From positions 5,543-69,542 of the forward strand of contig JAJZPF010000005.1 of the NCBI GenBank assembly GCA_021811315.1: 64,000 nucleotides of DNA. The letters run 5' to 3'. The stretch comes from a bacterium. Lineage in GTDB: Bacteria; Elusimicrobiota; Elusimicrobia; Elusimicrobiales; UBA9959. Shown here in pieces: positions 41,068-55,315 of the stretch. The notes under the pieces are model-generated. The model saw only the letters and a program-made list of their open reading frames with translations. It was not told the origin of the DNA and ran no database searches. The position numbers were made by a program, and so were the translations under genes. Positions within the stretch are counted from its first letter, which is position 1. The number at the start of each line of letters is the position of its first letter.

Positions 41068-41830
41068 ACTCATAAACGGCGCGACGGTCTACCTGGGTGA
41101 CGAGTTCTGCGCCCATAAACAGCCCTCTTTCAGGGACTTCGCCGCCGCCAGGGAACTGACAGGCAGGAACCCGGTCCTGGTGAGCTCGCTTCTGACCGAG
41201 CCGTTCCTGAAGAAATATATCGCGCTTCTCTCGGAGTGCGCTAAAAAAGCCCCGGGCACCGAAATAGTGGTAAACGACCTCGGCCTGCTGAATTTCATCG
41301 ACAAGAATTACCGCGGCGTGTTCAGCATCACCCTGGGCCGCCTGATCACCTACCTGTTCGACCCGAAGAACACGCGCGTCCTGGGTTCCAGATCCGACCA
41401 GGGCCTGGCGGGGAAAAAGATGAAGGTCTGGGAAGCCACTCTCGAGGCCACCCCCACGCCCTACATCAAGAGGTTCCTCAAGCGCTACCTGGTGGAGCGG
41501 ATAGAGACCGACAGCGAGCGCATCTTCCGCAAGTACGCCAAGAACACGAAGGTGAAGATCTCTTTTTATTCCCCCATGCGCCTTATGGCCATGACCCGGT
41601 TCTGCCCGTTCAGGGGCGGGATGGCGCTTGAGTGCAAGGAGCCGTGCGGAACCCGCCTTTTGAAGATAAAGACCCCCCATCTGGATTACCCCCTCTTCTC
41701 CAAAGGGAACGCTTATTTCGTCAAGAACAGGCCCGTGAAGCACCCCAGGCTGGACCGCACGGTCACCATTCCTTACATGAGCAGCACGGGCCTCAAGGTG
41801 TATATGAACGAAGGTTCCCTGCGCGGCTAA
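41012..41830 (+). CDS. UbiV-like U32 partner protein, copy 1
   Basis: VYLGDEFC, VVNDLG, LGRL, TRFC...CKEPC, KGN. Confidence 0.65.
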   Translation: MEKAIILSPSRICRPGALKLINGATVYLGDEFCAHKQPSFRDFAAARELTGRNPVLVSSLLTEPFLKKYIALLSECAKKAPGTEIVVNDLGLLNFIDKNYRGVFSITLGRLITYLFDPKNTRVLGSRSDQGLAGKKMKVWEATLEATPTPYIKRFLKRYLVERIETDSERIFRKYAKNTKVKISFYSPMRLMAMTRFCPFRGGMALECKEPCGTRLLKIKTPHLDYPLFSKGNAYFVKNRPVKHPRLDRTVTIPYMSSTGLKVYMNEGSLRG

Positions 41831-41853
41831 GGACCCGGGCGGCGCCCGCTGTT

Positions 41854-42729: not shown

Positions 42730-43552
42730 GCTCGTAAAGAACGCGACGGTCTACCTGGGGGACGAATTCTGCATTCACAAGCAGCCCTCCTTCCGGGACT
42801 TCGCCGCCGTCAGGAAGCTGTCCGGCAGAAACCCGGTGCTTCTGGGCACGCTTTTGACCGAGCCCGCTTTTGACCGCTGGGCCCTGCTGCTGGCGGAATG
42901 CGCGAAAAAGGCGCCGGGCGCCGAGGTGGTGGTCAACGACGTCGGCCTGCTGCGCTTTATCGACGGGAACTACCGCGGCAGGTTCAAGCTCGCGCTGGGG
43001 CGCCTGATGACCTATTTCTTCGACACCAAGCACACGCGCCTTCCCGGCTGCACCAGGCCGCTCTTATGGACCGGCGAAGCTTCCGCCCCCGCGGCGCGTA
43101 AAGCGGACCTGGAGGCGGAGGAAAAAAGCCGGAAGTCCTGGGAGGACGGGCTCGACCTTACGCCCATAGCCTATATCAGGGAATTTTTAAAGCGCTACGC
43201 CATTGAGCGGGTGGAGACCGACAGCGAATATCTTTTCAAGAAATACTCCGACGGCACGGATATGAAAATATCCTACTATTATCCGCTGCGCCTGATGGCC
43301 ATGACCCGGTTCTGCCCTTTCGTCGGCGGCATCGTCCAGAAGTGCAAAGCGCCGTGCGGGACCAGCCTGGTGAGGCTCGAGACCCGGCAGCTCGATTACC
43401 GGCTTTTCTCAAAAGGCAACGCCTATTTCGCGAAGAACAAACTTTTCAAGCACCCCCGGCTGGACCGCCTGGTCGTGATGCCCCTCGCTAAAAGCCCCGG
43501 CTTCAACCCGCTCCCGAACAAATACTCCAGCCCGGACAGGCCCCGCGCTTAA
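42674..43552 (+). CDS. UbiV-like U32 partner protein, copy 2
   Basis: Collinear paralog of 41012-41830 (VYLGDEFC, RLMAMTRFCPF). Confidence 0.65.
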   Translation: MDRAILLSPTLISGRGTPELVKNATVYLGDEFCIHKQPSFRDFAAVRKLSGRNPVLLGTLLTEPAFDRWALLLAECAKKAPGAEVVVNDVGLLRFIDGNYRGRFKLALGRLMTYFFDTKHTRLPGCTRPLLWTGEASAPAARKADLEAEEKSRKSWEDGLDLTPIAYIREFLKRYAIERVETDSEYLFKKYSDGTDMKISYYYPLRLMAMTRFCPFVGGIVQKCKAPCGTSLVRLETRQLDYRLFSKGNAYFAKNKLFKHPRLDRLVVMPLAKSPGFNPLPNKYSSPDRPRA

Positions 43553-43556
43553 TTAT

Positions 43557-45332
43557 ATGGCCCTCATCAAAAAACAGCAGCGGGTGGCGCTGGTCTACCC
43601 CCCGGGGGAACAGAAGATCTCTGAGCCCATCCCGCCGCCCAACATGACCATAGCCGTCCTGGCCGACGCGCTCGCCGGGAACGGCTGCGAAGTCTTCCAG
43701 ATCGACGCGGAAAAAGAATGGTTCGACAGGATACAGTTCCTGTTCAGCGCCAGGCAGACCGAGCTTCTCTTCGACAAGGACGGCGTGGACGCCTTCGTAA
43801 AGGGCAAGGCCCCGGCCAGGCTCGCCGCGGAATACGAGCGCCTCTCCGCGCTCCTGCTCGGGGAGCTGGGGCTGCCTTCCGTGGACTTCGTCGGGATAAC
43901 GCTCGTGGATATGCGGGCCGAGCCCCTGATCATCAATTTCTCCGCCCTGCTGGCGCTCGCCGTCAAGAAGAAGTTCAAGGCCCGCACGGCAATAGGCTAC
44001 AGGGGCATGCCGAAAGAGGGCTATTTCTACCTGCTCAGGAAATACCCCTGTTTCGATTACGGCGTCTACGCCCGCTGGGGCGAGAAAGCCCTGCTCGAGA
44101 TCCTGAAGGACGCCGCCGGCGAAAGTTCGGCCATGATAGGCACCGTCGCCAGGAAAGGCGCCAGGCTGCGCAACTATCCCGACGGGGCCGCGCGGAGGCC
44201 CAGGGTCCCGCACCCCAGGTACGACGACCGGATACTCGAAAAGTACAAGGCTTACGACGGCGACATCCTCTCGAAGTACAACCCGGACGCCTCCTTCGCA
44301 AAGGACCTCGTCAAAAGGGACAAGCGCTACCTGGTCACCCCCTACGCCTTCGAACTTACCTGCACCGGCGCCTGCGCCTTTTGCGACAACGACAACCGCG
44401 TGCCCACCGACATGAAGTCGGTGGACCAGGTGATAGACGAGCTTTCGGAGCTTAAAGAGAAAGGGGCGACCGGGATCTACTTCATCAATTCCTCCTTCAA
44501 CAACCACTACCGGCAGGCGGAAGAGCTTTGCGAGAAGATGATAAAGCACAGGCTGGGCCTGAAATGGTTCGACTGCGCGAACCTGCGGATCATGGACGAG
44601 CCCCTGCTCGACAAAATGAAAGCCGCCGGCGCCGTGAAGCTGACCTTCGGCGTGGAGACGGGCAGCCAGCGGCTGATGAACTACGTCAACAAAGGCACCA
44701 CGGTGGAAAAAGCCGCCAGGTATCTTGAATACTCGGACAAGATAGGCATCTGGAACCATATCGAGCTGATCGCCGGGTTTCCCACCGAAACGGAGAAAGA
44801 CCTCCAGGACACGCTGGCCCTGATAGACAGGATAAAGGACTCCGTGGACCTGTACACGCTCAATCCTTTTTATTTTTACCCTAACTCCAGGTTTTACCGC
44901 GAGCCCCGGAAATTCGGCATCAGGATCCTGCCGGCGCCGCCCATGCAGCTCCTGAACTTCTTCTACCCTATCTACCGGATCGTGCAGCAGTACTCGCTGA
45001 AGTTCGACGAGATCGGCGGCCTGCCCTGGAAGGAAAAGAACGAGCAGATAGTCAGGTCCGTGACGGCCCTCTCGGAAAAGATCCGGAGCATCGCCACTTT
45101 CAGGGCCATCGGCAACGAGCACGTCTACCTGCTCAACTGCCTTTACGACAAGCTCGGGCACGGCCGCAAGCCCCTCATAAGGAAAATGGTGAAGGTCCTG
45201 ACCACGAAGTTCAAGCCTTACAACCTCAATTTCTTCATGGACGATTTCAGGACCAGTTTCAGCAAAGATAAAGATCCGCGCATATTCCTGCCCTTAAAGG
45301 ACACGCCTTTTCTCGGGGAAGAGCTCCCATGA
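43557..45332 (+). CDS. Radical SAM protein with divergent probable B12-binding-like N-terminus
   Basis: LVYPP..PPP, WGE, CTGACAFC, FGVETGS, GFPTET. Confidence 0.82.
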   Translation: MALIKKQQRVALVYPPGEQKISEPIPPPNMTIAVLADALAGNGCEVFQIDAEKEWFDRIQFLFSARQTELLFDKDGVDAFVKGKAPARLAAEYERLSALLLGELGLPSVDFVGITLVDMRAEPLIINFSALLALAVKKKFKARTAIGYRGMPKEGYFYLLRKYPCFDYGVYARWGEKALLEILKDAAGESSAMIGTVARKGARLRNYPDGAARRPRVPHPRYDDRILEKYKAYDGDILSKYNPDASFAKDLVKRDKRYLVTPYAFELTCTGACAFCDNDNRVPTDMKSVDQVIDELSELKEKGATGIYFINSSFNNHYRQAEELCEKMIKHRLGLKWFDCANLRIMDEPLLDKMKAAGAVKLTFGVETGSQRLMNYVNKGTTVEKAARYLEYSDKIGIWNHIELIAGFPTETEKDLQDTLALIDRIKDSVDLYTLNPFYFYPNSRFYREPRKFGIRILPAPPMQLLNFFYPIYRIVQQYSLKFDEIGGLPWKEKNEQIVRSVTALSEKIRSIATFRAIGNEHVYLLNCLYDKLGHGRKPLIRKMVKVLTTKFKPYNLNFFMDDFRTSFSKDKDPRIFLPLKDTPFLGEELP

Positions 45333-45531
45333 CCGGGAACGAACCCGCGGCCATACCTGACCTGCCGGCCACGCTCTCTTTCCCGGACCGGGAATCCGGC
45401 CGCAAGCCGCCCGCGCCCGTTCCTTTTCACAAGCGGGCCGCGCAATACTACAATATAGAGAGCGCGCCGGTTAAAGCCGGGGAACCGGCGGAGAATTTTG
45501 CGCGGACGCCGGTACGGGACAGCCTAAAGCA

Positions 45532-46683
45532 ATGAAGAAACGGGACTGCTGCGAGATAATACTTAACCACGCCTGCGACCTGGGCTGCGCCTTCTGCTCT
45601 CAGGCCGACTTCGACCCTTCCGCCCTGATGAAGCCGGGCGAGGCGGTGCGGCATATCTACCGGGCCAAAAAAGAAGGCTTCAGCCGCCTTGGCTTCTCCG
45701 GCGGCGAAGCGCTGCTGCGCCGGGACCTGCCGCAGCTTGTGAAAGCCGCGCGGGAAGTCGGCTTCAAAGCGGTGCGCCTCCAGACCAACGGCCTGCGCCT
45801 CGCCTCGATGGCGGCCGCGGAAAAACTGGTTCGGGCCGGCCTCACCGTCTGCAAATTCACTTTCGCAAGCCATATCCCCAAGGTGCACGACCGCCTCGTC
45901 GGGAAGCCTGAAGCCTTCAAAAAAAGCCTGGCCGGGCTCTCGAACATGCTGAAACTTAAAGCGGCCGTCGGGGTGAACCTGCTGGTCACCAAGGCTACTT
46001 ACCGGGCCCTCCCGGAAACGCTGAAGTTCTTCATGGCTAAAGGCGTTTCGAATTTCGTGCTTATCTACCCGATACATACAGGGGCCATGGCCCGCTCCCC
46101 GGCGCTGCGGATCAGCCTTCCGGCGGCAGCGCCTTATATCGCCAAAGCCCTGCGCCTCGCCGCCGCTTCCGGCCTTGGCCGCGAGGTAAAGGCGCTGAAC
46201 GTCCCGCCCTGCCTGCTACCGGGCTTCGAGAACATGGCCTCGGGCCTTTACCGCTTCAATACCGTGGTGGTTGCCGCCGACGGAGAGGCTCGCGACCTCG
46301 ATTCCTCGGTGGCCGCGGCCAGGCGGCAGGGGCCGCCCTGCGCGCGCTGCTTCTTTAAAAAGACCTGCCGCGGCGTCGACCATAACTACCTGGCAATTTT
46401 CGGCTGGAAGGGTATTTCGCCCGTCAAAAGAAAACCCGGCCCCGCCCGCCTGGCCTCCGGCCCGTTCTTTACGAACAGCGAGAAATGCTTCCTGGAACTC
46501 CTGCGCGGCGGAAAAGCGCGCGCAACTGCCGAACTCCTGCGGGCGGCCAAAAGCGTACCGCTCTGCTATGATTGCTCCGATGGTTCGAATGTAATGACCA
46601 CGGGGACGGCGCTGATAAAAAAAGGGCTGGTGACCCGCGCTTTGCGCGGCGGAATTTATTTTTGGAGCCTTAAGCATGCTTGA
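45532..46683 (+). CDS. HxsC-related radical SAM protein with C-terminal extension
   Basis: CDLGCAFC, SGGEA, QTNG, VPPCLL...CARCFFKKTCRG, tail with CYDC. Confidence 0.82.
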   Translation: MKKRDCCEIILNHACDLGCAFCSQADFDPSALMKPGEAVRHIYRAKKEGFSRLGFSGGEALLRRDLPQLVKAAREVGFKAVRLQTNGLRLASMAAAEKLVRAGLTVCKFTFASHIPKVHDRLVGKPEAFKKSLAGLSNMLKLKAAVGVNLLVTKATYRALPETLKFFMAKGVSNFVLIYPIHTGAMARSPALRISLPAAAPYIAKALRLAAASGLGREVKALNVPPCLLPGFENMASGLYRFNTVVVAADGEARDLDSSVAAARRQGPPCARCFFKKTCRGVDHNYLAIFGWKGISPVKRKPGPARLASGPFFTNSEKCFLELLRGGKARATAELLRAAKSVPLCYDCSDGSNVMTTGTALIKKGLVTRALRGGIYFWSLKHA

Positions 46684-47977
46684 AGAACTCCTCCGGGCCG
46701 CCGGTGAAAGCGGCCTTGAACTGGACGTGGACCGGCGCGCCCGGGAATTTAAAATCGCGTTTAAACCCGGCGCGGCCCCGGGCAAAGCGCGCCCCGTAGT
46801 TTATCCGCTCCTGGCCGCGCTGGAGGATAATTTCCTGGTAACGGTAAGCGGGGCGCCGGCCTGCCTGATGCCCGACGCCTTCGAGCATTTTAGCTGGCCG
46901 CTGGGGGCGAAGGGCCCTTTCAGGCGCGTTAAAGCCTGCCGCCTCTGCGCCCTCAGCGGGCGCTGCCCCGGGGTGAACCTGGCCTGGACCAAGGCAGCCG
47001 GGCTTTTAAACCCGGTGCTTCCGGCCCCGGCTGAACTCGTGATAGAACTGAACAAGAACTGCAATTTGGCCTGCAGGGCCTGCTTCGGACGCGGCGGCGA
47101 GGAACTCCCTCTGAAAACTGCGGAGAAAGCCCTGCGCGAGGCCGCCGCGCTGGGCGTGAAAAGCGCGCGCTTCACCGGCGGCGAGCCGCTGCTATACCCC
47201 GGCCTTGAAAAATTGCTGCGCCTCGCGCGAAAGCTGGGATTTTACACGCTGCTGAACACCAACGCCGTATTGTTCTCCCCGGCCGTCGCCCGCCGCCTCA
47301 AAGGGCTCGTCGACAACGCGCTGGTCTCGCTGCCCGGCGTGGATGAAGCGGGGCACGCGGCCGGCTCCGGGATGGCCGGGCAGTTCGGCCGGAAGACGGC
47401 GGCAATAAAGCGGCTGCGCTCTTCGGGAGTAAAAGTTTTAAGGGCAGGCACGGTCGTTTCAAAGCCGCTTTTAAACGATTTCAGCCGCTGGCATAAAGCC
47501 GTACGCCGGCTCGGCTTCGACATCTGGGAACTTTACAGGCCGATGATGACCGGCAAGGCCCTGGCCGCCGCCGCGGAATTCAAGATTTCCAGGAACGATC
47601 TTATAAACCTGGCGAAAAGAACAGCGGCCCTGGAACCAGGGCGGCCCAGGACCGTACTTGCCAACCCCGTACCGTACTGCGCAATTCCGGCGGCGGCCAG
47701 GCCCTTCGCCCTCGGGGCCCGCTTCGACGACGGCTGGACCAGGCTGGTGCTGGACGCTTCCGGGGTTTACAAACCCAGTTATCCCTCGGCGCAATTCCTC
47801 GGCAAAACGCTGGCCGGCGCCTGGGCGCACCCTTTCCTTAAAAAGACGCGGGCGGCGGCCTGGCTCCCGGCGAAGTGCCGCCGCTGCGGCATGCTTTCAG
47901 CCTGCCTTGGCGGCAGCCGCTTCCAGGCCGAAGCCGCCGGCGATATTTTCGGCGCCGACCCGTGGATGGCAGGATGA
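46676..47977 (+). CDS. Radical SAM/SPASM protein with extra N-terminal Cys domain
   Basis: APACLM..CRLCALSGRCPG, then CNLACRAC, TGGEP, NTN, CRRCGMLSACLGGSR. Confidence 0.85.
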   Translation: MLEELLRAAGESGLELDVDRRAREFKIAFKPGAAPGKARPVVYPLLAALEDNFLVTVSGAPACLMPDAFEHFSWPLGAKGPFRRVKACRLCALSGRCPGVNLAWTKAAGLLNPVLPAPAELVIELNKNCNLACRACFGRGGEELPLKTAEKALREAAALGVKSARFTGGEPLLYPGLEKLLRLARKLGFYTLLNTNAVLFSPAVARRLKGLVDNALVSLPGVDEAGHAAGSGMAGQFGRKTAAIKRLRSSGVKVLRAGTVVSKPLLNDFSRWHKAVRRLGFDIWELYRPMMTGKALAAAAEFKISRNDLINLAKRTAALEPGRPRTVLANPVPYCAIPAAARPFALGARFDDGWTRLVLDASGVYKPSYPSAQFLGKTLAGAWAHPFLKKTRAAAWLPAKCRRCGMLSACLGGSRFQAEAAGDIFGADPWMAG

Positions 47978-48693
47978 AAATATTTTTCCTGCGCTGCGAC
48001 GACGTAACGAAACCCGATAAGGCTTTCCTGCGTATTTACGGACCGCTCAGGGCTGCCGGGCTGCCGGTTTCCTGCGCCGTTATCCCCGCCCGGGCCGGGC
48101 AGGCGCTGGCCGCCTTCTTCCGCGCCGAAACCGCCGCCGGCGCCCGCCTCGAAGCCTTGCAGCACGGCCTCAGCCACGCCGAACATTCCGGCAACAGGTA
48201 CCTCAAGCAGGAATTCGGCCCTTCGCGCTCTTATAAAGAGCAGCGGGCCGATATAGCCGCTGGAAAGAAGCTGATGAAAAAGCTGTTCGGGAAAATTTCA
48301 AAGCCGGTTTTTGTGCCGCCGTTCCACATTTACAATTCGGACACGCTTAAAGCCCTGGCAGCGCTCGGATTCAAGGCGGTCTCCGCCAGCCGGCGGCTGA
48401 AGGAGCCAATGCCGCGGGGCCTGGCTTTCCTGGGCACCAGGGTTACGGTAAACGAATATGACCTGGAACTAAAGCCCCGCCCGCTTTTTTTGAGCCGGTT
48501 GAAATCACGGACCCTGGCGGCCATAAAAGAGGGCGGCGCCCCCTCCGGCATCTATTTCCACCACGACGATATCAGGGGGAAGGACTTTGAAATTTTCTCG
48601 GGGTATATCTCTTTCCTGAAAGAGCTGGAAAACCGCGGGCTGGCCCGCTTTGTCCCGGCTTCCGAACTTATTAAAAAACCCTCTCGATCTTAA
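47974..48693 (+). CDS. Polysaccharide deacetylase-like (NodB/DUF2334-type) protein
   Basis: LRCDD, AVIP, QHGLSH, EFG, FVPPF, YFHH; ATGA overlap. Confidence 0.78.
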   Translation: MKIFFLRCDDVTKPDKAFLRIYGPLRAAGLPVSCAVIPARAGQALAAFFRAETAAGARLEALQHGLSHAEHSGNRYLKQEFGPSRSYKEQRADIAAGKKLMKKLFGKISKPVFVPPFHIYNSDTLKALAALGFKAVSASRRLKEPMPRGLAFLGTRVTVNEYDLELKPRPLFLSRLKSRTLAAIKEGGAPSGIYFHHDDIRGKDFEIFSGYISFLKELENRGLARFVPASELIKKPSRS

Positions 48694-49636
48694 AGCGCTG
48701 GCAGCAGCGGGCGCAGCCCTGCGGCGGCCCGGCCTTGACCAGCCGGCGCTTGACCTTCAGCACAGCCGCCCGGTCAAAGTCTTTGGCCCGGCCCGCCGCC
48801 GCGCCGTAGAGAACACAGGTCCGTACGCTCCCGTCGGGCTCCACGTTAACGGTTGAAAGCAGCCCGGGGCAGGAGCCGGCGGGCTTCAGCAGCCCGTTAT
48901 AATAGCGCTCCAACTGCGCGGGCGTAAAATCCGGCCGCAGCTCGAAGCGGGTTTTAAAAGCCCCGCGCAGCGCTTTTATTTTCTTTATCGAGGCCGCAAA
49001 CGCGCGCGCATCCAGGCGGTAGCCGTCCAGCGCCGGGGTAATTATTTCGGACGGGGAAAGCCCGGCGCGCGCGGCCTCCGCCTTTTTCACGAACTGCAGA
49101 TGCTCGAAGACGGCCCTGTCGGCGCCGGCGCGGGCCGCGTCGAGGTAAACGGCCGGCAGCAAGGCCGCGTTAGCGGCGTTAACGACGCAGTTGGTTATTA
49201 TCTCCGTTCCGGGCCTTTTAAAGTCCGCCGCCGTTTTAAGATTTGCCAGCAGTTTTTTATGCGCGCCCCTCACGCGCAGGAGGCGGTCGTGCGCGGCGGC
49301 GGGGCCGTGCAGCGAAAAAATAATATAGGCCGGCCCTAGGGCCAGCAGCTTTTTTATTTTAGCGGCGTCCAGCGCCAGGCCGTTGGTATTGACCCCCCAA
49401 TCGAAGCCGCGCGCGGACGCGTACGCCAGTATTCCGAAAATATCCTTTCGCAGAAAAGGCTCTCCCCCGCTGAAGTAGAAATGCGTGCCTGCCGGGAAGC
49501 GGCGCATGAAGGCCTTGATCTCCGCCTCCTTCATCTCCGGCCCCCGCCTGTTAAGGCGGCCCGTCTTTCCCAGGTAGCAGAAAGCGCAGGCCGCGCCGCA
49601 GCGCCAGGTAAGTTCCATCATCACGGTTTCTTTCAT
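48671..49636 (-). CDS. Radical SAM/twitch protein (start reassigned to MKETV)
   Basis: CGAACAFC, SGGEP, NTNG, C..VEPDGSVRTC..CARCC; ATGA overlap with upstream glycosyltransferase. Confidence 0.85.
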   Translation of the reverse strand: MKETVMMELTWRCGAACAFCYLGKTGRLNRRGPEMKEAEIKAFMRRFPAGTHFYFSGGEPFLRKDIFGILAYASARGFDWGVNTNGLALDAAKIKKLLALGPAYIIFSLHGPAAAHDRLLRVRGAHKKLLANLKTAADFKRPGTEIITNCVVNAANAALLPAVYLDAARAGADRAVFEHLQFVKKAEAARAGLSPSEIITPALDGYRLDARAFAASIKKIKALRGAFKTRFELRPDFTPAQLERYYNGLLKPAGSCPGLLSTVNVEPDGSVRTCVLYGAAAGRAKDFDRAAVLKVKRRLVKAGPPQGCARCCQRFKIERVF

Positions 49637-50781
49637 AGGCCGCATATGATCCGCGCCGACTTTTGCGCGCCGCGGAACCAGGAGGGTTTTACGCGTTTCG
49701 AGATCCTGACCGGCTTCCCCAGCCGAACCCTTACCGCGGCAGCGATCTTCTCCGGGGTAAGGTCCGCCGGCAGGAGCAGAGCCGCGCCGGCCAGGTCCCT
49801 CATCAGCCAGGCGCGGGCCAGCTGGTCGGAATGCTCGCGCATTTTTGAGCCGCAGTAGGGGGCCAGCACCATTTTTTTCCGCAAAGCCAGCATTTCGTAA
49901 ACGGAGCCGCCCGCCGTAGAAAGGCAAACGGCGGCCCCGGACATGAGGTCCTGCAGGCCGGCCGAGCTCCCTATTACCTCGGCCTTTCCTCCGCCGGAAG
50001 CCGCCAGCCGCCGAAAATAGGCCAGCCGCCGGGGCGGCGTGGCCGGCCCCGCGACAAGCCTGAAAGGGACGTCGGAAATGGAAGCCGCCCCGATAGCGGC
50101 CTCAAAAAAAAGGTCGGAAGTGGAACCGCCGCCGCGCGTGACCAGCACGAAATCGTTTGTTTTAACCCGCTTAACTACGGGCTTGCCGGGGTAAAGGTAG
50201 CCGGTAAAGACGATCTTGCGGCGCAGTTCCCGGAACACTGAAAGAAAGGCGGGCGCGGTTATGCGCCTCTCCAGGCTTACGGCTTTTGCCATGTATGCGA
50301 GGTCCGCGCCTTCAGGGCTGTGGACCAGGAGCTTATCGTAGCGGGCGCAGACCCCGAGCAGCTCTTCAAGGCCGCGCTCCGGGGCCGTAAAATAGGGCAT
50401 AGGGACGCTTGAAATCTTCTTCGCGCCGCAGGCCGAAGCCGCCTCGAGGAGAGGGAGCGCTTCCGGAAGGCACTCGGCCCTGCCGAAAGGAAAGAACTCG
50501 GTCACCAGCGCCGAAGGCCGGAACCGCCGCAGCGTAAGGGCGAGGCGGCGGCCCGAAGCCGCGGAGGGCGCCGCCGGGAGCCGCACTACCCGCCCGTATT
50601 TGCTGAAAAGGTTATACGGATAAATATACGGGCCCCGCAGAAAGATCAAACTGCGGCTGCCGCGGGATCCTTTGATCTCCGCCAGCAGCCGCAGCAAGTG
50701 TACCGCGTGACCGATATCCCCGGAGGGACTATGGAGGTAAAAAACAAGTCTTTCCCGCGCCGCTGATTCAATAGGAACCAT
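49633..50781 (-). CDS. GT-B fold glycosyltransferase (GT28/MurG C-terminal-like)
   Basis: GDIGH, EFFPFGR, FTGY, VTRGGG, STAGG..YE, DQ..RA. Confidence 0.75.
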   Translation of the reverse strand: MVPIESAARERLVFYLHSPSGDIGHAVHLLRLLAEIKGSRGSRSLIFLRGPYIYPYNLFSKYGRVVRLPAAPSAASGRRLALTLRRFRPSALVTEFFPFGRAECLPEALPLLEAASACGAKKISSVPMPYFTAPERGLEELLGVCARYDKLLVHSPEGADLAYMAKAVSLERRITAPAFLSVFRELRRKIVFTGYLYPGKPVVKRVKTNDFVLVTRGGGSTSDLFFEAAIGAASISDVPFRLVAGPATPPRRLAYFRRLAASGGGKAEVIGSSAGLQDLMSGAAVCLSTAGGSVYEMLALRKKMVLAPYCGSKMREHSDQLARAWLMRDLAGAALLLPADLTPEKIAAAVRVRLGKPVRISKRVKPSWFRGAQKSARIICGL

Positions 50782-51094
50782 GGCTGCCGTGGCTGCCGTG
50801 GGAACCGTGGCTGCCGTGGGAACCGTGGCTGCCGTGAGAACCGTGGCTGCCGTGGGAGGCGTGCGAACCGTGGCTGCCGTGCGAACCGTGGCTGCCGTGG
50901 CTCTGGTGGCTTACGTGGGAGCTGCTGGTGAAGTAATTAGAGTGAACCTGCGCCGCGGCCTGCTCGACCATTACCGTACCGAGTATGCCGAGGGCCAGGC
51001 CGGTCTTCACGATATCCGAGTCCAGCATCTTGCCTTCCTCGCTGCTGAGGAACATGCGGATGTTCTTTTTAAGTTTCGAGGTTTTCTTTTTCAT
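50768..51094 (-). CDS. hxsA: His-Xaa-Ser repeat precursor peptide (HxsA-like), 108 aa
   Basis: Basic leader, FLSSEEG, hydrophobic segment, then 16 tandem HxS (HVS, HQS, 4xHGS, HAS, 9xHGS) and terminal Tyr; two genes downstream of hxsB. Confidence 0.88.
   Translation of the reverse strand: MKKKTSKLKKNIRMFLSSEEGKMLDSDIVKTGLALGILGTVMVEQAAAQVHSNYFTSSSHVSHQSHGSHGSHGSHGSHASHGSHGSHGSHGSHGSHGSHGSHGSHGSY
50774..50917 (-). repeat. Coding 9-bp tandem repeat (partial 18-bp higher order) encoding HxS units
   Basis: Plus strand alternates gctgccgtg and (g/c/a)gaaccgtg units. Confidence 0.95.
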
Positions 51095-51172
51095 AAGTTT
51101 ACCGTCCCGCTTTCCCGATAACAGCGCCAAGGAAGAACCGGATCGTTCCGTTCGACACGGAACGGAACCTGC

Positions 51173-52306
51173 CTATTCGCCCTTCTTGCCCATCAGCTTC
51201 CGCACCTTTTCATTGACCTGCTTGGTGGTGGTTTCTTCCTGCTTGCGGAGCCGCTCCTCCTCCGCTTTCTTCCTCGCCGCCTCCGCCAGTGATTCCTTCA
51301 CTTCTTCAGGCGTGACCCCGAAAAAACCGCCGCTTTTTTTCATTTGCTCTTTGCGGTAGGCGCAATATTTCTGGGACATGTCGGCAAGGATGGGCGCGCA
51401 GGGCCCGGGGCTGTTCTGCAGCAGCGCGGCGCAGTTCGGCTTGTAAGCGTCCGGGCACTTGGCCGGGTTGCCCGTGAACAAGCCTGTCCACAGGTCATGG
51501 TCGGCCAGGCAGGCGGCGTCGGAGCCGCAGACGTCCGCGGTGATAGCCATCAGCCTTTCAGCCGGAGGATAAGCCTGCGGCATTTTTTTCTTGATATAGG
51601 AGAAAGCGCTGTCAAAGCCCTTGGAGACCGCCGTGCAGAATTCAGCGGGGTTGGCGAACAGGGGGGGCTGGCCCTCGCTGGGCTGCTCGCTGACAAAGTC
51701 AAGGCAGTTCCGCTGGTCTTTGGCTTTGCCGGCGGCATAGGCCTTGAAGAGGAAAAGCACGGTCTTCTTCCTGCATAGGTCCATCGGGGTCATAAAGGCG
51801 CCGATCTTGGAATCTACTTTCGGATTTTCGAACGAGGGGACGCCGAACTTGGCCACGTCCTTTACATTTTCCCCGGGAAGCTCGCTGCAGATCGAAGAGT
51901 CCTGGCGCGAAGCGGCCGTGCAGGCGTAATAATCCCAGATATGGTTATAGATATCCTGGGTCTTGATCGGCTCGATGGCCAGGTTGCGGCCGGTGAAGTA
52001 GCCCCAGGTCTTGCCGTGGTTCTCCATTATCTCCTTGGGGGACCCGCCCTCGCAGGCGCCCTTGAGGTCCAGCGCCGCCGCGGGCAGCGCCAGTTGCTCA
52101 AAGCTGCCGGTAGCCTGCGCCGAGGTAGGCATGGGGCTGGGAGGTATATAATCGGTAGAGCCGGGAGGCAGCGCCACTCCCTGCTGCTCGGCCTGGGGCT
52201 GCGTGGCCGGCTGGGGCATACCGACCTGGTTTTTAGCCGCAAAATATTTCAGCCCCACCAAGGCCGCCGCCAAGATGACAACAACGCCTATGATTATTTT
52301 TTTCAT
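51173..52306 (-). CDS. Membrane-anchored/exported Cys-rich hypothetical protein
   Basis: N-terminal TM, Pro/Gln linker, 12 Cys, charged helical C-terminus; lies between hxsB and hxsA. Confidence 0.75.
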   Translation of the reverse strand: MKKIIIGVVVILAAALVGLKYFAAKNQVGMPQPATQPQAEQQGVALPPGSTDYIPPSPMPTSAQATGSFEQLALPAAALDLKGACEGGSPKEIMENHGKTWGYFTGRNLAIEPIKTQDIYNHIWDYYACTAASRQDSSICSELPGENVKDVAKFGVPSFENPKVDSKIGAFMTPMDLCRKKTVLFLFKAYAAGKAKDQRNCLDFVSEQPSEGQPPLFANPAEFCTAVSKGFDSAFSYIKKKMPQAYPPAERLMAITADVCGSDAACLADHDLWTGLFTGNPAKCPDAYKPNCAALLQNSPGPCAPILADMSQKYCAYRKEQMKKSGGFFGVTPEEVKESLAEAARKKAEEERLRKQEETTTKQVNEKVRKLMGKKGE

Positions 52307-52446
52307 AAATTTAAACGCTACCCCGGACCCTCCCTTGAACAGCCGGACACCCTAACATATGTTTTACCACAAAAAACGACAATTTTCAAGCCCAAAAGAT
52401 ATTAAGGCCTGACGGGAAACACCGGGGAAACTATTGCCGACACGCT

Positions 52447-53853
52447 TTAACTGCGGGCTATCCACTTCTCGAATATATCGAAGACGGGTTTCTCCGACAA
52501 CTTCTCAAAGATATAGTCAAAAACACCGATGAGCGTCCGGCAGCGCCCGTTCGAAGGCATGGAACCCCAGAAGCCGCCCTGAGCCGCCTGGTTATAGGCC
52601 GGGCAGGCGCCGCAGAACGGCTTGTAGGCGCAGCGCGCGCACACGGGCTGCAGGTCAAGGCTTGAGGAGATGGCGCAGGCCTTGACCGGCTCGGAGCTTA
52701 TAACCCCGGCATAGGCGTCCTTCAAAACGCTTCCAAGGCGGAAGGAGCGGTCCCCGCCGCGGGCGAGCATGCGGCCTTCGTCACAGGTATATACCCCCCC
52801 GTCGCAGTCGTAGGCCAGCTGGCCCAGGCCGGCCCCGCAGGGGCAGCGCAGGTCGACATACCTGTTATCCTGGGTGCCGATGATCTTTTTTACGGCCAGG
52901 AAAGCGGTTTTTTCTTTTATGGGCACGCCGCGCCGGTTAAGCTCCAGCACGCGGTCCAGCCCCTCCCGGTAAAATCCCAGGAATTCTTCCGGGGTATAGC
53001 CTATCTCGTCCCAGCGCTTCAGCGCGTCGCCGATGGGAGAAAGCGGCTTGAGGAAAACGTAGGGCAGCTTAAGGCGGGCGTACTCGTCAACTATTTCCCG
53101 GGCCCGCCCGAGCGAGGCCCTCGTAACCGTCAGCAGCGCGCTGGGCCCGCCGGGGGGCTCGGCCCCGCGGCGCTCCTGGAAATATTTTATCCACTTCGCC
53201 GCGACGGCGTGGGAATCGCCGCCGGAGAATTTACGGTTCGCGTTGTGCAGGTCCGCGGGCCCGTCCAGGGAGGTGCAGAGCGAGATATCGTTCGCGACTA
53301 TGAAATCGGCCTTCTTTTCATCCATCAGGCTGAAATTGGAAACCAGCGCCAGGGCCAGCCCCTTGCCGGTCTTTTCCGCTTTTTTGCGCGCGTAAATAGA
53401 GGCTTCCTTCAGCGCGGCCCAGTTCACCAGCGGCTCGCCGCCCTGGAACTCCAGAGTGAGCCCGCTCACGGGCGCGCTGAAAGCGAAATCCACGGCGCGG
53501 CGGGCCGTGGCCGGGCTCATGTTCCTACCGGCGCCGGAGCCGGCCTGGCAATAGACGCAGCTATGATTGCATTTCTCGGTCAGCACCATTATATGCAGGC
53601 CCGGGCCAAGGCGCAGATATTCGTTGGAATCCCTCCAGTCGGTAAAAATAGAGTCGAAATCAAGGCGCGAGCGCAGAAGCCCTGCCCTCCGCAGCGCTTC
53701 AAAAGCCGGCCCGCTCTTCAGTTTGCCCGCGGCGAAGAGCTTGAACTCGGCGGGCTTAAGCAAAGCCCAGCCGCCCAAATCGCCGGTAACCAGCACCCCC
53801 GCCTTAAGGCGGCGCCAGTTAAAATAAGCGGGCAGGTCCAGCTGTTTTTTCAT
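52447..53853 (-). CDS. hxsB: His-Xaa-Ser system radical SAM/SPASM maturase HxsB (start reassigned to MKKQLD)
   Basis: LHIMVLTEKCNHSCVYCQA, EFQGGEPL, TSLDGP..LHN.NR, VDLRCPCGAG.GQLAY..DG.VYTCDEGRM, C..C.YKPFCG.CP. Confidence 0.88.
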   Translation of the reverse strand: MKKQLDLPAYFNWRRLKAGVLVTGDLGGWALLKPAEFKLFAAGKLKSGPAFEALRRAGLLRSRLDFDSIFTDWRDSNEYLRLGPGLHIMVLTEKCNHSCVYCQAGSGAGRNMSPATARRAVDFAFSAPVSGLTLEFQGGEPLVNWAALKEASIYARKKAEKTGKGLALALVSNFSLMDEKKADFIVANDISLCTSLDGPADLHNANRKFSGGDSHAVAAKWIKYFQERRGAEPPGGPSALLTVTRASLGRAREIVDEYARLKLPYVFLKPLSPIGDALKRWDEIGYTPEEFLGFYREGLDRVLELNRRGVPIKEKTAFLAVKKIIGTQDNRYVDLRCPCGAGLGQLAYDCDGGVYTCDEGRMLARGGDRSFRLGSVLKDAYAGVISSEPVKACAISSSLDLQPVCARCAYKPFCGACPAYNQAAQGGFWGSMPSNGRCRTLIGVFDYIFEKLSEKPVFDIFEKWIARS

Positions 53854-53905
53854 TGCGCTCCTGATATCATATAAAAATAGCGCCATACGGATAAACGTGA
53901 AACCT

Positions 53906-54040
53906 TGGAGGTTGCCTGGCTGACCGGGTAAGCAAAAGCCCCTCGGAGGCCGAGGCTTGCGTAAGCGCCGAGGCCGAGAGCGGCAGGCGCGAGCACGGTG
54001 TGCGAGACGCCGATTTTGCGTCCCGGCCAGCCAGGCAACC
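53906..54040 (-). repeat. Structured ~135-nt element, copy 1 (REP/MITE-like or ncRNA)
   Basis: 19-bp terminal inverted repeat 53910-53928/54022-54040 (one G-T pair on the minus strand), core shared with 63868-63932, followed by TCCA on the minus strand. Confidence 0.8.
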
Positions 54041-54057
54041 GAACCCATCACTTCTTC

Positions 54058-54087
54058 TTGACAATACCGAGGCGAAAGACATTTAAT
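54058..54087 (+). promoter_or_regulatory. Putative sigma70 promoter of ygeW
   Basis: TTGACA-N18-TTTAAT, then GGAG RBS before ATG 54125. Confidence 0.5.
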
Positions 54088-54124
54088 TGTTGTAGCAACG
54101 ATAGCAAACACCTGGAGATAAAAA

Positions 54125-55315
54125 ATGCCCATCAATATCGAAAGATCTTTAGCTGAACTGGAAAAGCTCGGCGCCGGCATGCGCGGCAAGGATTTCCTGC
54201 TCACCTGGGAAAAATCCGACAAAGAACTCAAATCCGTTTTCATCATCGCCGAGCTCCTCAAAGAGCTCCACGCCAAGAACGTCCCCCTCGACATGTTCAA
54301 GACCGGCCTCGCCGTCTCCAACTTCCGCGACAACTCCACCCGCACCCGCTTCTCCTTCGCCTCCGCCTGCAACCTGCTCGGCCTCGCCGTCCAGGACCTC
54401 GACGAGGGCAAAAGCCAGATAGCCCACGGCGAGACCGTGCGCGAAACCGCCAACATGATCTCCTTTTTGACCGAGGCCGTCGGCATCCGCGACGACATGT
54501 TCATCGGCAAAGGCCACACCTATATGCAGGAAGTCGCCGAGGCCCTCGACGACGGTTTCAGGAACGGCGTGCTGAACCAGCGCCCCGCCGTGGTCAACCT
54601 CCAGTGCGACCTCGACCACCCCACCCAATCCATGTCCGACATGCTCTTCATAAAGAACCATTTCGGCGGCTTCGAAAAACTCAAGGGCAAGAAAATAGCC
54701 ATGACCTGGGCCTACTCCCCCAGCTACGGCAAACCCCTCTCCGTGCCGCAGGGCGTCATCTGCCTGATGACCCGCTACGGCATGAACGTCGAGCTCGCCC
54801 ACCCCGAGGGCTACGACCTGCTCCCCGAGACCATCAAGGTCGCCGGCGACAACGCCAAAAAGTCCGGCGGCTCCTTCAAAGTCTCGAACAGCATGGAGAG
54901 CGCTTTCAAGGACGCCGACATCGTCTACCCGAAGAGCTGGGCTCCCTACAAAGTGATGGAGCGCCGCACGCAGCTCCTCGAGAAGAACGACCACCCCGGC
55001 CTCAATGACCTCGAGAAAGAATGCCTGGCGCAGAACGCTAAACACACGGATTGGGAATGCGACGAGAAGAAGATGAAGCTCACCAAGGGCGGCGAAGGCC
55101 TCTACCTGCACTGCCTGCCCGCCGACATCACGGACGTGTCCTGCAAACAGGGCGAGGTAAGCGCCAAGGTCTTCGAGAAATACCGCATCGGGACCTACAA
55201 AGAAGCCGGCTACAAGCCCTTCATCATCGCGGCCATGATAGCCGCCTGCACAAAAAAGAACCCCGCGAAAGTAATACAGGCGCTTTACAAGTCCGGGCAG
55301 AAACGCGTCCTGTAG
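54125..55315 (+). CDS. ygeW: Knotted carbamoyltransferase YgeW
   Basis: DFLLTW, FRDNSTRTR, HGETVRET, NLQCDLDHPTQ, WAYSPSYGKPLSVPQG, YLHCLPAD. Confidence 0.93.
   Translation: MPINIERSLAELEKLGAGMRGKDFLLTWEKSDKELKSVFIIAELLKELHAKNVPLDMFKTGLAVSNFRDNSTRTRFSFASACNLLGLAVQDLDEGKSQIAHGETVRETANMISFLTEAVGIRDDMFIGKGHTYMQEVAEALDDGFRNGVLNQRPAVVNLQCDLDHPTQSMSDMLFIKNHFGGFEKLKGKKIAMTWAYSPSYGKPLSVPQGVICLMTRYGMNVELAHPEGYDLLPETIKVAGDNAKKSGGSFKVSNSMESAFKDADIVYPKSWAPYKVMERRTQLLEKNDHPGLNDLEKECLAQNAKHTDWECDEKKMKLTKGGEGLYLHCLPADITDVSCKQGEVSAKVFEKYRIGTYKEAGYKPFIIAAMIAACTKKNPAKVIQALYKSGQKRVL

What the first reader, a model, noticed from the sequence alone, without database searches (positions are those of the whole stretch)
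50768..51094. Precursor with 16 HxS repeats and an Flp-pilin-like FLSSEEG leader plus hydrophobic helix
Seen: MKKKTSKLKKNIRM-FLSSEEG-KMLDSDIVK-TGLALGILGTVMV-EQAAA-QVHSNYFTSSS-(HxS)16-Y. The basic region ending FxxxEEG resembles class III (Flp prepilin) leaders, although the pilin Glu+5/Tyr motif is absent. The hydrophobic stretch ending AAA could instead be a signal-peptidase site. Inference: the core may be exported or membrane-tethered as a regular His/Ser array for cross-linking, glycosylation or metal binding, rather than released as a diffusible antibiotic.
Basis: partly seen in the sequence, partly recalled or inferred. Interest (0 to 1): 0.85.

Follow-up and report, generated by a model that had tools for sequence, protein, structure and literature searches.

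The report
HxsA4 His-Ser repeat precursor, Elusimicrobia
This small gene encodes a catalogued but unstudied type of histidine-serine repeat protein that radical SAM enzymes probably modify; its leader looks like an extended export signal, not a pilin leader.

Summary
Window 50768-51094 (-) encodes the 108-aa peptide as written, with 16 HxS units and a final Y.

It is not an unknown kind. It passes NCBIfam NF038313, His-Xaa-Ser repeat protein HxsA4 (91.2 bits, cut-off 55). It lies two genes downstream of an HxsB radical SAM/SPASM maturase (429.8 bits, cut-off 370).

The leader is real and conserved. F-L-x-S-E-E-G-K, a 13-residue uncharged stretch and an A-x-A/A|Q site recur across Elusimicrobiota. 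Invariant residues use all synonymous codons. A leader-only profile finds 196 cluster representatives. Of the 149 best, 121 hit HxsA3 and 52 hit HxsA4. An HxsB gene lies upstream in 63 of 66 genome loci and 54 of 59 metagenome loci.

The Flp reading is not supported. No leader hits Flp_Fap or N_methyl (0 of 30). No Flp_Fap match over cut-off occurs in 49 genomes of the family. K always follows the G, and the best-scoring relative has A instead of G.

Best reading: an extended Sec-type signal whose conserved n-region is the maturase handle. Export is inferred, not shown. Novelty: new member of a known kind. Interest 0.38.

The parts
50768..51094 (-). HxsA4 precursor gene (108 codons plus stop)
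   Evidence: Translation. NF038313 HxsA4 91.2 bits, cut-off 55. Start supported by orthologues.
51053..51094 (-). Residues 1-14, Lys-rich start of the leader (MKKKTSKLKKNIRM). Its length varies between relatives.
   Evidence: Alignments. K9/K10 are conserved in at least 90% of rows.
51029..51052 (-). Residues 15-22, conserved F-L-x-S-E-E-G-K motif. Proposed recognition handle for the maturase (inferred).
   Evidence: S18, E19, E20, G21 and K22 are invariant in A3 (32 rows) and A4 (68 rows). The rows were picked with a regex that needs [ST]EEG. One further relative has SEEA. All synonymous codons are used.
51005..51028 (-). Residues 23-30, charged spacer MLDSDIVK between the motif and the hydrophobic stretch
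50966..51004 (-). Residues 31-43, 13-residue uncharged stretch TGLALGILGTVMV. Read as the h-region of a signal peptide.
   Evidence: The length is exactly 13 in 62 of 67 distinct leaders. Kyte-Doolittle maximum is 2.41 over 11 residues and 1.33 over 19. G36 and G39 are invariant.
50951..50965 (-). Residues 44-48, EQAAA. Candidate signal-peptidase I site A-A-A|Q (inferred).
   Evidence: Strict A-x-A in 44 of 67 leaders, against a shuffle mean of 27.8 and maximum of 37. An A|Q dipeptide recurs in three clades.
50918..50950 (-). Residues 49-59, QVHSNYFTSSS with the conserved H-x-N-[YA]-[FL] motif. Predicted start of the mature product.
   Evidence: H51 and N53 are invariant.
50774..50917 (-). Residues 60-107, 16 His-Xaa-Ser units. 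Probable target of radical SAM modification. Followed by Y108 (50771-50773).
   Evidence: Copy number among relatives ranges from 10 to 39.
52447..53853 (-). HxsB radical SAM/SPASM maturase, 468 aa. The start is taken at the ATG behind an AGGAG site.
   Evidence: TIGR03978 429.8 bits, cut-off 370. Start. Upstream of the precursor on the same strand in 63 of 66 genome loci.
51173..52306 (-). Gene between hxsB and hxsA4: membrane-anchored, Cys-rich helical protein of no known family (P0004)
   Evidence: No Pfam, NCBIfam or PADLOC hit. AF2 pLDDT 83.9, helix 2-29 then a helical domain with 12 Cys. None of 177 PDB fold matches reaches E<=0.001. Lies between HxsB and A4 in 36 of 66 loci.
49633..50781 (-). 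GT-B fold glycosyltransferase-like gene (P0002) that overlaps the precursor's last 14 bases
   Evidence: Only weak Glyco_tran_28_C/MurG sequence hits, below cut-off. AF2 pLDDT 83.3. 328 PDB matches at E<=0.001, led by GT1 UDP-glycosyltransferases and MurG. Directly downstream in 17 of 69 loci.
48671..49645 (-). Radical SAM gene, last of the minus-strand run. The start is inferred at the ATG before the Cys motif.
   Evidence: Pfam Radical_SAM 63.4 bits. Sequence.
45532..46683 (+). HxsC-like radical SAM gene on the convergent strand. It passes neither the HxsC nor the HxsC4 cut-off.
   Evidence: NF038332 96.9 bits (cut-off 500). TIGR03977 70.9 bits (cut-off 267.9). A homologue lies in 56 of 80 loci.
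46676..47977 (+). Further radical SAM gene with a 110-aa N-terminal extension. Possibly part of the system.
   Evidence: A homologue lies in 26 of 80 loci.

Best explanation
The ORF is a translated precursor of the HxsA4 family, the Elusimicrobiota branch of the His-Xaa-Ser radical SAM systems.

Its first 48 residues are the leader type shared by the NCBIfam families HxsA3 and HxsA4. I read this leader as an extended Sec-type signal peptide with three parts:
- a long Lys-rich n-region that carries the conserved F-L-x-S-E-E-G-K motif;
- a 13-residue h-region;
- an A-x-A|Q cleavage site.

Proposed course (inferred, by analogy with the characterised HxsA of E. coli):
1. In the cytoplasm the conserved n-region motif docks the peptide to HxsB, which is always encoded just upstream.
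2. HxsB and the neighbouring HxsC-like radical SAM enzymes modify the His/Ser array. In this clade a GT-B glycosyltransferase may also act.
3. The product is exported and cut after A48. This releases into the periplasm a roughly 60-residue modified array that begins Q-V-H-S-N-Y-F and holds 18 His, 23 Ser and no charged residue other than His.
4. There it acts as a multivalent His array. It either binds metal or, when protonated, binds polyanions such as incoming phage DNA, as proposed for HxsA.

Shown: family membership, leader conservation, protein-level selection and linkage to HxsB. Inferred: recognition by HxsB, export, cleavage site, chemistry and function.
For: Identity. NF038313 scores 91.2 bits against a cut-off of 55, covering residues 6-94, leader included. 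HxsB scores 429.8 bits against 370.

Leader conservation.
- 7 of 7 database relatives found with residues 1-60 keep F[LF][SN]SEEGKMLD.
- S18, E19, E20, G21, K22, G36 and G39 are invariant in 68 rows. These rows were regex-selected for [ST]EEG.
- Invariant residues use 2 to 4 synonymous codons each.

Signal-like anatomy.
- The uncharged run is exactly 13 residues in 62 of 67 distinct leaders.
- The Kyte-Doolittle 19-residue maximum is 1.33 here and below 1.6 in 67 of 70. The TM anchor of the neighbouring P0004 scores 2.55.
- Strict A-x-A occurs in 44 of 67, above all 200 shuffles.
- The low-GC HxsA3-type relatives show textbook sites such as VSA|A, ISA|H and ASA|A directly before the conserved H-[ST]-[SN]-[YQ]-F.

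Linkage to the maturase.
- HxsB lies upstream on the same strand in 63 of 66 genome loci with at least 3 kb upstream.
- It does so in 54 of 59 metagenome loci with at least 1.6 kb upstream. There HxsB is only 34-43% identical and the cores differ.

The leader travels with varied His-rich cores. A leader-only profile finds 196 representatives at E<=0.001. Of the best 150, 50 have a run of three or more HxS units and 100 do not.

Precedent. HxsA of the HXS defence system has a signal peptide, needs HxsB/C/D for N-terminal processing, and acts in the periplasm (PMC13128918, sections 8-11 read).

Envelope context. The gene between hxsB and hxsA4 encodes a membrane-anchored Cys-rich protein.
Against: - No signal-peptide predictor could be run, so the Sec reading rests on my own simple measures.
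- The n-region is unusually long. Next to the h-region it is net acidic in this clade (SEEGKMLDSDIVK).
- In one clade the supposed c-region is charged and helix-like (RAEDLLAQT), and 25 of 67 distinct leaders carry two or more charged residues in the last ten positions.
- The permissive (-3,-1) rule is met by 67 of 67, but shuffles already give 59, so only the strict A-x-A count is informative.
- No RRE or PqqD-like domain was detected by Pfam in the first 85 residues of HxsB.
- No HxsD passes its cut-off and no HxsC passes its own. The analogy with the characterised system is therefore partial.
- The core has no Lys or Arg, unlike the basic repeats of HxsA.
- A match in 43 of 47 genomes of the family, and a conserved YgeW neighbour, look more like a lineage core trait than a mobile defence island.
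Confidence: 0.55

Rival explanations
1. Uncleaved signal anchor. The Lys-rich N-terminus stays in the cytoplasm, the hydrophobic stretch spans the inner membrane, and the His/Ser array is displayed tethered on the periplasmic face.
For: - A strongly positive N-terminus fits the positive-inside rule (up to about 15 Lys in relatives).
- Small-xxx-small spacing around the invariant G36 and G39.
- In one clade the segment after the hydrophobic stretch is charged (RAEDLLAQT), which is unlike a typical c-region.
- Among the low-GC relatives 22 of 50 reach a 19-residue hydropathy of 1.6.
Against: - The uncharged run is only 13 residues in 62 of 67 leaders and is bounded by charged residues on both sides.
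- The 19-residue hydropathy is 1.33 here and below 1.6 in 67 of 70.
- A-x-A is enriched directly before a conserved motif.
Confidence: 0.15
2. Purely cytoplasmic RiPP leader. The whole 48-residue N-terminus, hydrophobic helix included, is only a docking element for the radical SAM enzymes. A dedicated protease removes it, and the product is not exported by Sec.
For: - The leader co-occurs with HxsB across lineages, as RiPP leaders do with their maturases.
- Several radical SAM genes cluster around the precursor.
- In the characterised system HxsA is still cleaved when its signal peptide is replaced (PMC13128918, section 8).
Against: - The h-region/A-x-A anatomy is conserved even where the rest of the leader diverges.
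- Relatives carry the same leader in front of 500-aa proteins with C-terminal domains, which is not peptide-like.
- No peptidase or transporter gene was recognised in the conserved core. A U32-like gene lies in only 12 of 80 loci.
- HxsA is periplasmic (PMC13128918).
Confidence: 0.2
3. Class III (Flp-type) prepilin-like leader. A prepilin peptidase cuts after G21 and the hydrophobic helix is kept in the mature, membrane- or fibre-associated product.
For: - A basic region ends F-x-x-x-E-E-G.
- A prepilin peptidase gene exists in the genome.
Against: - None of 30 leaders hits Flp_Fap or N_methyl at E<=10. No pilin appears in a PDB profile search.
- The peptidase is PilD-type, beside an N_methyl pilin.
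- No Flp_Fap match in the held genome (63% complete), and none over cut-off in 49 genomes of the family.
- Position +1 is an invariant Lys, and the hydrophobic run starts 9 residues later and is 13 long.
- There is no conserved Glu at +5.
- G21 is Ala in the best-scoring relative and in several HxsA3-type proteins.
Confidence: 0.03

Closest known systems
NCBIfam NF038313 (HxsA4) and NF038309 (HxsA3), His-Xaa-Ser repeat proteins
   Same: The peptide passes the HxsA4 cut-off over leader and repeats. The leader-only profile retrieves proteins of which 121 of 149 hit HxsA3 and 52 hit HxsA4. HxsB is encoded next door.
   Different: Nothing differs, since it is a member. These families exist only as annotation models. 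My full-text searches for HxsA4, HxsA3, HxsA2, HxsC4 and NF038313 found 0 papers. The leader anatomy described here is therefore not in the searched literature.
HxsA of the HXS anti-phage system of E. coli (Li et al. 2026, PMC13128918; sections 8-11 read)
   Same: Both have a His-x-Ser array, an HxsB-family radical SAM/SPASM maturase, further radical SAM enzymes, an N-terminal hydrophobic export-like signal, and N-terminal processing expected.
   Different: - HxsA is at least 214 residues (MS coverage to residue 214) with a 22-residue signal peptide, a peptidoglycan-binding domain and 5 basic repeats. This peptide is 108 aa with a 48-residue leader, 16 mostly H-G-S units and no other domain.
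- No HxsD and no HxsC pass their cut-offs here.
- The gene order differs. Extra genes are present (P0004, GT-B).
- The distribution is lineage-wide in Elusimicrobiota families rather than patchy in Pseudomonadota (section 10 of the paper).
Flp/Fap prepilins (Pfam PF04964) and class III signal peptides
   Same: A basic N-terminus ending in F-x-x-x-E-x-G followed further on by a hydrophobic stretch.
   Different: - No profile match.
- Lys follows the Gly, and a charged spacer precedes a 13-residue hydrophobic run.
- The Gly is replaceable by Ala.
- No Flp_Fap match over cut-off in the 49 searched genomes of the family.

The G/xxxxEY rule of Flp pilins is recalled, not taken from a call.
Leader peptides of radical SAM/SPASM-modified RiPPs, bound by an N-terminal recognition domain of the maturase (recalled general knowledge)
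   Same: A conserved leader is coupled to a variable core and to one maturase family across lineages.
   Different: Here the leader also contains a signal-peptide-like h-region and A-x-A site. Some relatives are 500-aa proteins rather than peptides. A recognition domain in HxsB was not detected by Pfam.

Membership tests
HxsA4 (NCBIfam NF038313) | Score over the curated cut-off of the family model | tested here: met
   91.2 bits against a cut-off of 55, residues 6-94 on profile positions 3-91 of 93. A six-frame search of the genome gives 61.4 bits, over the cut-off.
HxsA4 (NCBIfam NF038313) | Tandem His-Xaa-Ser repeats | tested here: met
   16 consecutive units.
HxsA4 (NCBIfam NF038313) | Genomic association with an HxsB-family radical SAM maturase | tested here: met
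   HxsB at 52447-53853 (-), TIGR03978 429.8 bits against 370. Upstream in 63 of 66 related loci.
HxsA3 (NCBIfam NF038309) | Score over the curated cut-off | tested here: not met
   43.8 bits against a cut-off of 65. The hit shows a shared leader but not membership.
Canonical HXS defence system (HxsA/B/C/D; PMC13128918) | HxsA (TIGR03979) with a peptidoglycan-binding domain | tested here: not met
   TIGR03979 is not among the hits at E<=0.1. The only Pfam hit is a repeat-driven Collagen match. The 108-aa peptide has no room for a further domain.
Canonical HXS defence system (HxsA/B/C/D; PMC13128918) | HxsB (TIGR03978) | tested here: met
   429.8 bits against 370.
Canonical HXS defence system (HxsA/B/C/D; PMC13128918) | HxsC (TIGR03977) | tested here: not met
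   The best candidate, 45532-46683 (+), scores 70.9 bits against a cut-off of 267.9. It also falls below the HxsC4 cut-off (96.9 against 500).
Canonical HXS defence system (HxsA/B/C/D; PMC13128918) | HxsD (TIGR03976) | tested here: not met
   None in the window. The best hit in the held genome scores 25.9 bits (cut-off 50). It lies about 23 kb away on the same contig, beside a second HxsB. The genome is 63% complete.
Canonical HXS defence system (HxsA/B/C/D; PMC13128918) | Protection against phage | not testable with these tools
   PADLOC-DB 2.0.0 has no Hxs model; it gave only viperin cross-hits of the radical SAM domains.
Flp/Fap prepilin (PF04964), class III signal peptide | Match to the family profile | tested here: not met
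   None of 30 leaders at E<=10, and no N_methyl hit. P0001 has no hit at E<=0.1.
Flp/Fap prepilin (PF04964), class III signal peptide | Gly at -1 directly followed by the hydrophobic segment with Glu +5 (rule recalled) | tested here: not met
   Invariant K at +1. The hydrophobic run starts at +10. Position +5 is S, E, K, Q or G in different clades. Gly is replaced by Ala in L003.
Flp/Fap prepilin (PF04964), class III signal peptide | Flp pilins and a dedicated Tad-type peptidase in the same lineage | tested here: not met
   No Flp_Fap in the held genome. None over cut-off in 49 genomes of the family. The single A24 peptidase found is PilD-type, with an A24_N_bact domain. The genome is incomplete, so absence is not proven.
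Sec-type signal peptide cleaved by signal peptidase I | Positive n-region, h-region of about 7-15 residues, small residues at -3 and -1 (rules recalled) | tested here: met
   7 Lys and 1 Arg in residues 1-14. A 13-residue uncharged run. A46-A47-A48|Q49. The n-region is atypically long and carries acidic residues.
Sec-type signal peptide cleaved by signal peptidase I | Positive call by a trained predictor, or experimental N-terminus | not testable with these tools
   No SignalP, DeepTMHMM or PilFind is on hand, and there are no proteomic data.

The most novel reading that the evidence does not exclude
The F-L-x-S-E-E-G-K extension in front of a Sec-like signal is a distinct, undescribed targeting module shared by the HxsA3 and HxsA4 families across phyla. 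It would hold a nascent His-rich protein at the cytoplasmic HxsB radical SAM enzyme until the array is modified, and only then allow export, coupling radical SAM chemistry to secretion.

In Elusimicrobiota the system matches 43 of 47 sampled genomes of the organism's own family at E<=0.001. The modified (HGS)n array may therefore be a core envelope component, for example a periplasmic metal buffer or a polyanion trap, rather than an accessory defence island.
Probability: 0.3. Interest if true: 0.65.

Novelty: new member of a known kind. Interest (0 to 1): 0.38.

Why it matters
His-Xaa-Ser systems were an orphan radical SAM family from 2011 (Haft and Basu, recalled). In 2026 one branch was shown to make a periplasmic anti-phage effector (PMC13128918). 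The HxsA3/HxsA4 branches are named only in an annotation library.

This locus and its relatives show four things:
- the two branches share one conserved leader;
- the leader always travels with HxsB, while the cores vary from 7 to more than 50 HxS units, Cys/His-rich cores, or 500-aa proteins;
- the leader has the anatomy of an extended export signal;
- in Elusimicrobiota the system is nearly universal in some families.

This gives a concrete, testable handle (motif, predicted cleavage site, partner genes) for asking how a cytoplasmic radical SAM modification is coupled to export. It also asks whether HxS arrays have functions beyond phage defence. For annotation the gene itself is ordinary: NCBI's pipeline would name it HxsA4.

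Tried and rejected
- Co-folding of HxsB (468 aa, alignment A2 of 32 rows) with the leader (65 aa, alignment A3 of 32 rows) gave no verdict: score 0.00 in both runs against a mark of 0.32, and controls were not run. It is neither support nor evidence against binding.
- RNA evidence: no RNA holder was listed. The one RNA run of the same study (X10) laid nothing on 50400-51500. This says nothing about expression.
- DNA runs: X1 pieces tile the array without differences, but no listed piece spans the stretch.
- The ESM Atlas did not hold the window's peptide. For P0009 and P0004 it gave only Elusimicrobiota clusters of hypothetical proteins.
- A PDB sequence search with the leader profile gave 3 chance-level hits with E 0.36-1.5.
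- A fold search for P0004 gave 0 of 177 matches at E<=0.001, so its function stays unknown.
- PADLOC gave only viperin cross-hits.
- The promoter/terminator scan of 48500-54300 was at shuffle level: 2 against 1.4 and 13 against 9.7.
- Tat signal considered and rejected. There is no twin Arg before F-L, and the f8-type clade has no Arg there at all.
- Double-glycine/PCAT leader considered and rejected. The window's I-L-G-T does not fit, and no C39 transporter was seen among the conserved neighbours.
- The 230-aa N-terminal extension of the long HxsB ORF (52447-54519) is rejected as spurious. It overlaps the YgeW gene, and the profile match starts at residue 231, behind a good ribosome-binding site.
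- The Collagen Pfam hit of the array (27.7 against 27.2 bits) is read as a repeat artefact.
- The permissive (-3,-1) count is uninformative: 67 of 67 against 59 in shuffles.
- Supplementary files of PMC13128918 were not seen. They may hold the HxsA sequence features (signal peptide, cleavage mapping) that I compare with only through the main text.

Selection caveats.
- Alignment A1 holds 30 of the 31 HxsA4 loci fetched (L001, L003-L032). They were picked by a regex needing SEEG and at least 3 HxS units. The one dropped (L003) has SEEA.
- A3, A4 and the counts use the 74 of 80 genome loci in which my regex located an ORF. Three of the 70 distinct leaders lacked an H-x-N motif and were left out of the 67.
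- A7 is 34 hand-picked non-Elusimicrobia-like representatives.
Full report
**1. What is there**

It has:
- a Lys-rich start;
- FLSSEEG at 15-21;
- a charged spacer;
- TGLALGILGTVMV at 31-43;
- EQAAA;
- QVHSNYFTSSS;
- 16 His-x-Ser units (13 HGS, HVS, HQS, HAS) and a final Tyr.

In the held genome (a 2.67-Mb assembly, 63% complete) five consecutive His-x-Ser codons occur only at this place. There are 12 overlapping matches, none elsewhere, and none for the reversed control. Ser alternates between AGC (9) and TCN (7) with an 18-bp period. These two codon families cannot interconvert by single synonymous steps, so the repeat is held at the protein level.

No single contig piece of the possible source run spans the array. 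A 98%-identical leader in the protein collection carries 4 units (P0005). The number 16 is therefore only as good as the assembly.

**2. What it is**

The peptide passes the curated cut-off of NCBIfam NF038313, 'His-Xaa-Ser repeat protein HxsA4' (91.2 bits against 55). The match covers the leader as well as the repeats. It also touches HxsA3 (43.8 bits, below 65) but not HxsA.

The minus-strand run of genes is:
- hxsB (52447-53853; TIGR03978 429.8 bits against 370; start fixed by a ribosome-binding site and by the profile);
- an unknown gene, P0004 (51173-52306);
- hxsA4;
- P0002, which overlaps the precursor's stop by 14 bases (49633-50781);
- a radical SAM gene (48671-49645).

On the convergent strand lie a B12-radical SAM gene, an HxsC-like radical SAM gene, a further radical SAM gene and a DUF2334/deacetylase-like gene. 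The HxsC-like gene scores 70.9 bits against the HxsC cut-off of 267.9, and 96.9 against the HxsC4 cut-off of 500.

No HxsD passes its cut-off. A weak HxsD-like frame (24.5-25.9 bits, cut-off 50) sits beside a second HxsB (480 bits) about 23 kb away on the same contig, outside the window.

**3. Who has it**

A pattern scan of one genome per species returned 151 matches, of which 122 were confirmed. Of the 80 loci kept, 75 carry titles naming Elusimicrobia/Elusimicrobiota and 5 say only 'bacterium'.

In a sample of 401 genomes of the phylum, 79 have a match over the cut-off. Matches at E<=0.001 occur in 43 of 47 genomes of the organism's own family, 17 of 20 of its genus, 34 of 47 and 9 of 10 of two other families, and only 3 of 118 of a small-genome family.

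In the closest clade the locus keeps the same YgeW neighbour (18 of 80 loci). This looks like a lineage trait rather than a mobile island.

**4. The leader**

In three alignments (A1 30 rows, A3 32 rows, A4 68 rows):
- S18, E19, E20, G21, K22, G36 and G39 are invariant;
- F15, L16/L24, V29, K30, L35 and I37 are at least 90% conserved;
- H51 and N53 after the hydrophobic stretch are invariant.

The rows were picked with a regex that needs [ST]EEG, so the invariance of that part is partly built in. The independent checks are the 7 of 7 database relatives found by similarity over residues 1-60 and the one locus the regex dropped, which reads SEEA.

The invariant residues are written with all their synonymous codons: E GAA/GAG 38/30 and 43/25, and G with four codons. 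The frame is therefore under amino-acid selection. No RNA data were available.

**5. Flp or Sec?**

The Flp resemblance does not survive testing.
- None of 30 leaders hits Flp_Fap or N_methyl, even at E<=10.
- No pilin appears in a PDB profile search.
- There is no Flp_Fap match in the held genome, and none over cut-off in 49 genomes of the family.
- The one A24 peptidase found is PilD-type, beside an N_methyl pilin.
- Lys is invariant after the Gly. Nine mostly charged residues precede the hydrophobic run. Position +5 is not conserved. The Gly can be Ala.

The hydrophobic run is exactly 13 uncharged residues in 62 of 67 distinct leaders, fenced by charged residues. Its 11-residue hydropathy is 2.41 but its 19-residue maximum is 1.33. 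That is below the 1.6 usually asked of a membrane span (threshold recalled), as in 67 of 70 relatives. The anchor of the neighbouring P0004 scores 2.55.

Just after it, a strict A-x-A occurs in 44 of 67 leaders, against a shuffle mean of 27.8 and a maximum of 37. An A|Q dipeptide recurs in all three clades shortly before the conserved H-x-N-[YA]-[FL].

This is the anatomy of a Sec signal peptide with an unusually long n-region. I could not run a trained predictor. One clade has a charged, helix-like 'c-region'. I therefore hold this at moderate confidence.

**6. Which cores and enzymes go with the leader**

A profile of the leader alone (52 positions, no repeats) was searched against 1.84 billion cluster representatives. 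It found 196 at E<=0.001 and 25 at E<=1e-10.
- Of the best 150, 50 have a run of three or more HxS units and 100 do not. Many of the latter are fragments. Others have different His-rich cores (H-S-S-C, H-x-D, H-G-N), and many end in G-G-W-C.
- Of 149 scanned, 121 hit HxsA3 and 52 hit HxsA4 at E<=0.001. The leader is thus the common N-terminal module of these two curated families.

A metagenome scan seeded with 34 of the unlike ones gave 541 pattern matches, 197 confirmed and 80 kept, on contigs of 28-50% G+C.
- In 54 of the 59 with at least 1.6 kb upstream, an HxsB homologue (34-43% identical to ours) lies directly upstream.
- In the Elusimicrobiota set the figure is 63 of 66.
- There the sites before the conserved H-[ST]-[SN]-[YQ]-F are textbook (VSA|A, ISA|H, ASA|A).
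- Several proteins are about 500 residues long: leader, 27-56 HxS units, then a roughly 340-residue domain of no Pfam family starting C-C-P-F. In one case a Hint domain follows.

HxS arrays are thus often parts of exported proteins, as in E. coli HxsA.

**7. Neighbours**

- P0004 has no family in Pfam, NCBIfam or PADLOC. Its model (pLDDT 83.9) is an N-terminal membrane helix, a disordered linker, a helical domain with 12 Cys (7 invariant and 4 more conserved in at least 90% of 34 relatives) and a long C-terminal helix. No PDB fold match reaches E<=0.001. It lies between hxsB and hxsA4 in 36 of 66 loci.
- P0002 models (pLDDT 83.3) as a GT-B glycosyltransferase, with 328 PDB matches at E<=0.001 led by GT1 enzymes and MurG. 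It follows the precursor directly in 17 of 69 loci.
- Another radical SAM homologue is present in 49 of 58 loci with at least 6 kb downstream.

**8. How it probably works**

The only characterised relative is the HXS system of E. coli (PMC13128918; abstract and sections 8-11 read, supplements not seen). There HxsA has a signal peptide, needs HxsB, HxsC and HxsD for N-terminal processing and for a +8 Da change in one repeat, accumulates in the periplasm, and blocks phage DNA entry.

By analogy, and from the anatomy above, I propose the following. The conserved n-region docks the precursor to HxsB in the cytoplasm. The array is modified. The product is exported and cut after A48. The array acts in the periplasm.

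What it does there is open. The core has 18 His and no Lys, Arg, Asp or Glu. It would be a polycation only when His is protonated. Otherwise it looks like a metal-binding array. The near-universal presence in some families argues for a housekeeping envelope role at least as much as for defence.

**9. Verdict**

The Flp interpretation is rejected. The export idea is plausible but unproven. The gene is a regular member of a curated family, so it is a new member of a known kind. The leader's architecture and its strict coupling to HxsB across lineages do not appear in the literature I could search, and they make a testable case.

Noticed in passing
Own contig outside the window: G000:C27:78260-80126 (loci L115, L116): A second HxsB paralogue (TIGR03978 480 bits in the genome search) lies with a weak HxsD-like frame just upstream (24.5-25.9 bits, cut-off 50). 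It is about 23 kb from hxsA4. No second array of five or more HxS codons exists in the held genome, so its substrate is unknown.
   Followed up: partly
window 51173-52306 (-): P0004 is a membrane-anchored, 12-Cys helical protein specific to Elusimicrobiota. It has a confident model (pLDDT 83.9) but no family and no PDB fold match. It is inserted between hxsB and hxsA4 in about half of the related loci.
   Followed up: partly
L123:1500-3023, L127:3837-5513, L166:974-2470, L156:8001-9572 (metagenome loci): The same leader and long HxS arrays (27-56 units) are fused to a conserved domain of about 340 residues that starts C-C-P-F-[IV]-x-L-W-N-G. It has no Pfam family.
   Followed up: partly
L196:348-1181; also P0111 and P0143: Leader plus a His-rich stretch is followed by a Hint (intein-like) domain (PT-HINT 28.1 bits against 27.7 in L196). 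Many short relatives end in G-G-W-C, which may be related to the Cys at the Hint junction. This is speculation.
   Followed up: no
window 37261-45332: The flank is dense in radical SAM genes. It holds two B12-binding radical SAM genes (37261-38745 -, 43557-45332 +), an amine-oxidase/phytoene-desaturase-like flavoprotein (38742-40067 -) and a U32-peptidase-like gene (41632-42729 +). In some relatives the flavoprotein and B12-radical SAM pair follows hxsA4 directly (for example L056, L058, L070, L072, L073).
   Followed up: partly
window 45329-45535 (+): A 68-codon ORF lies between the B12-radical SAM gene and the HxsC-like gene. It is conserved in 7 of 80 related loci by tblastn and has no family. 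It could be a small accessory protein or a second precursor.
   Followed up: no
window 54125-55315 (+): A knotted carbamoyltransferase YgeW (679 bits) is divergently transcribed from hxsB. The neighbourhood is kept in 18 of 80 related loci.
   Followed up: no
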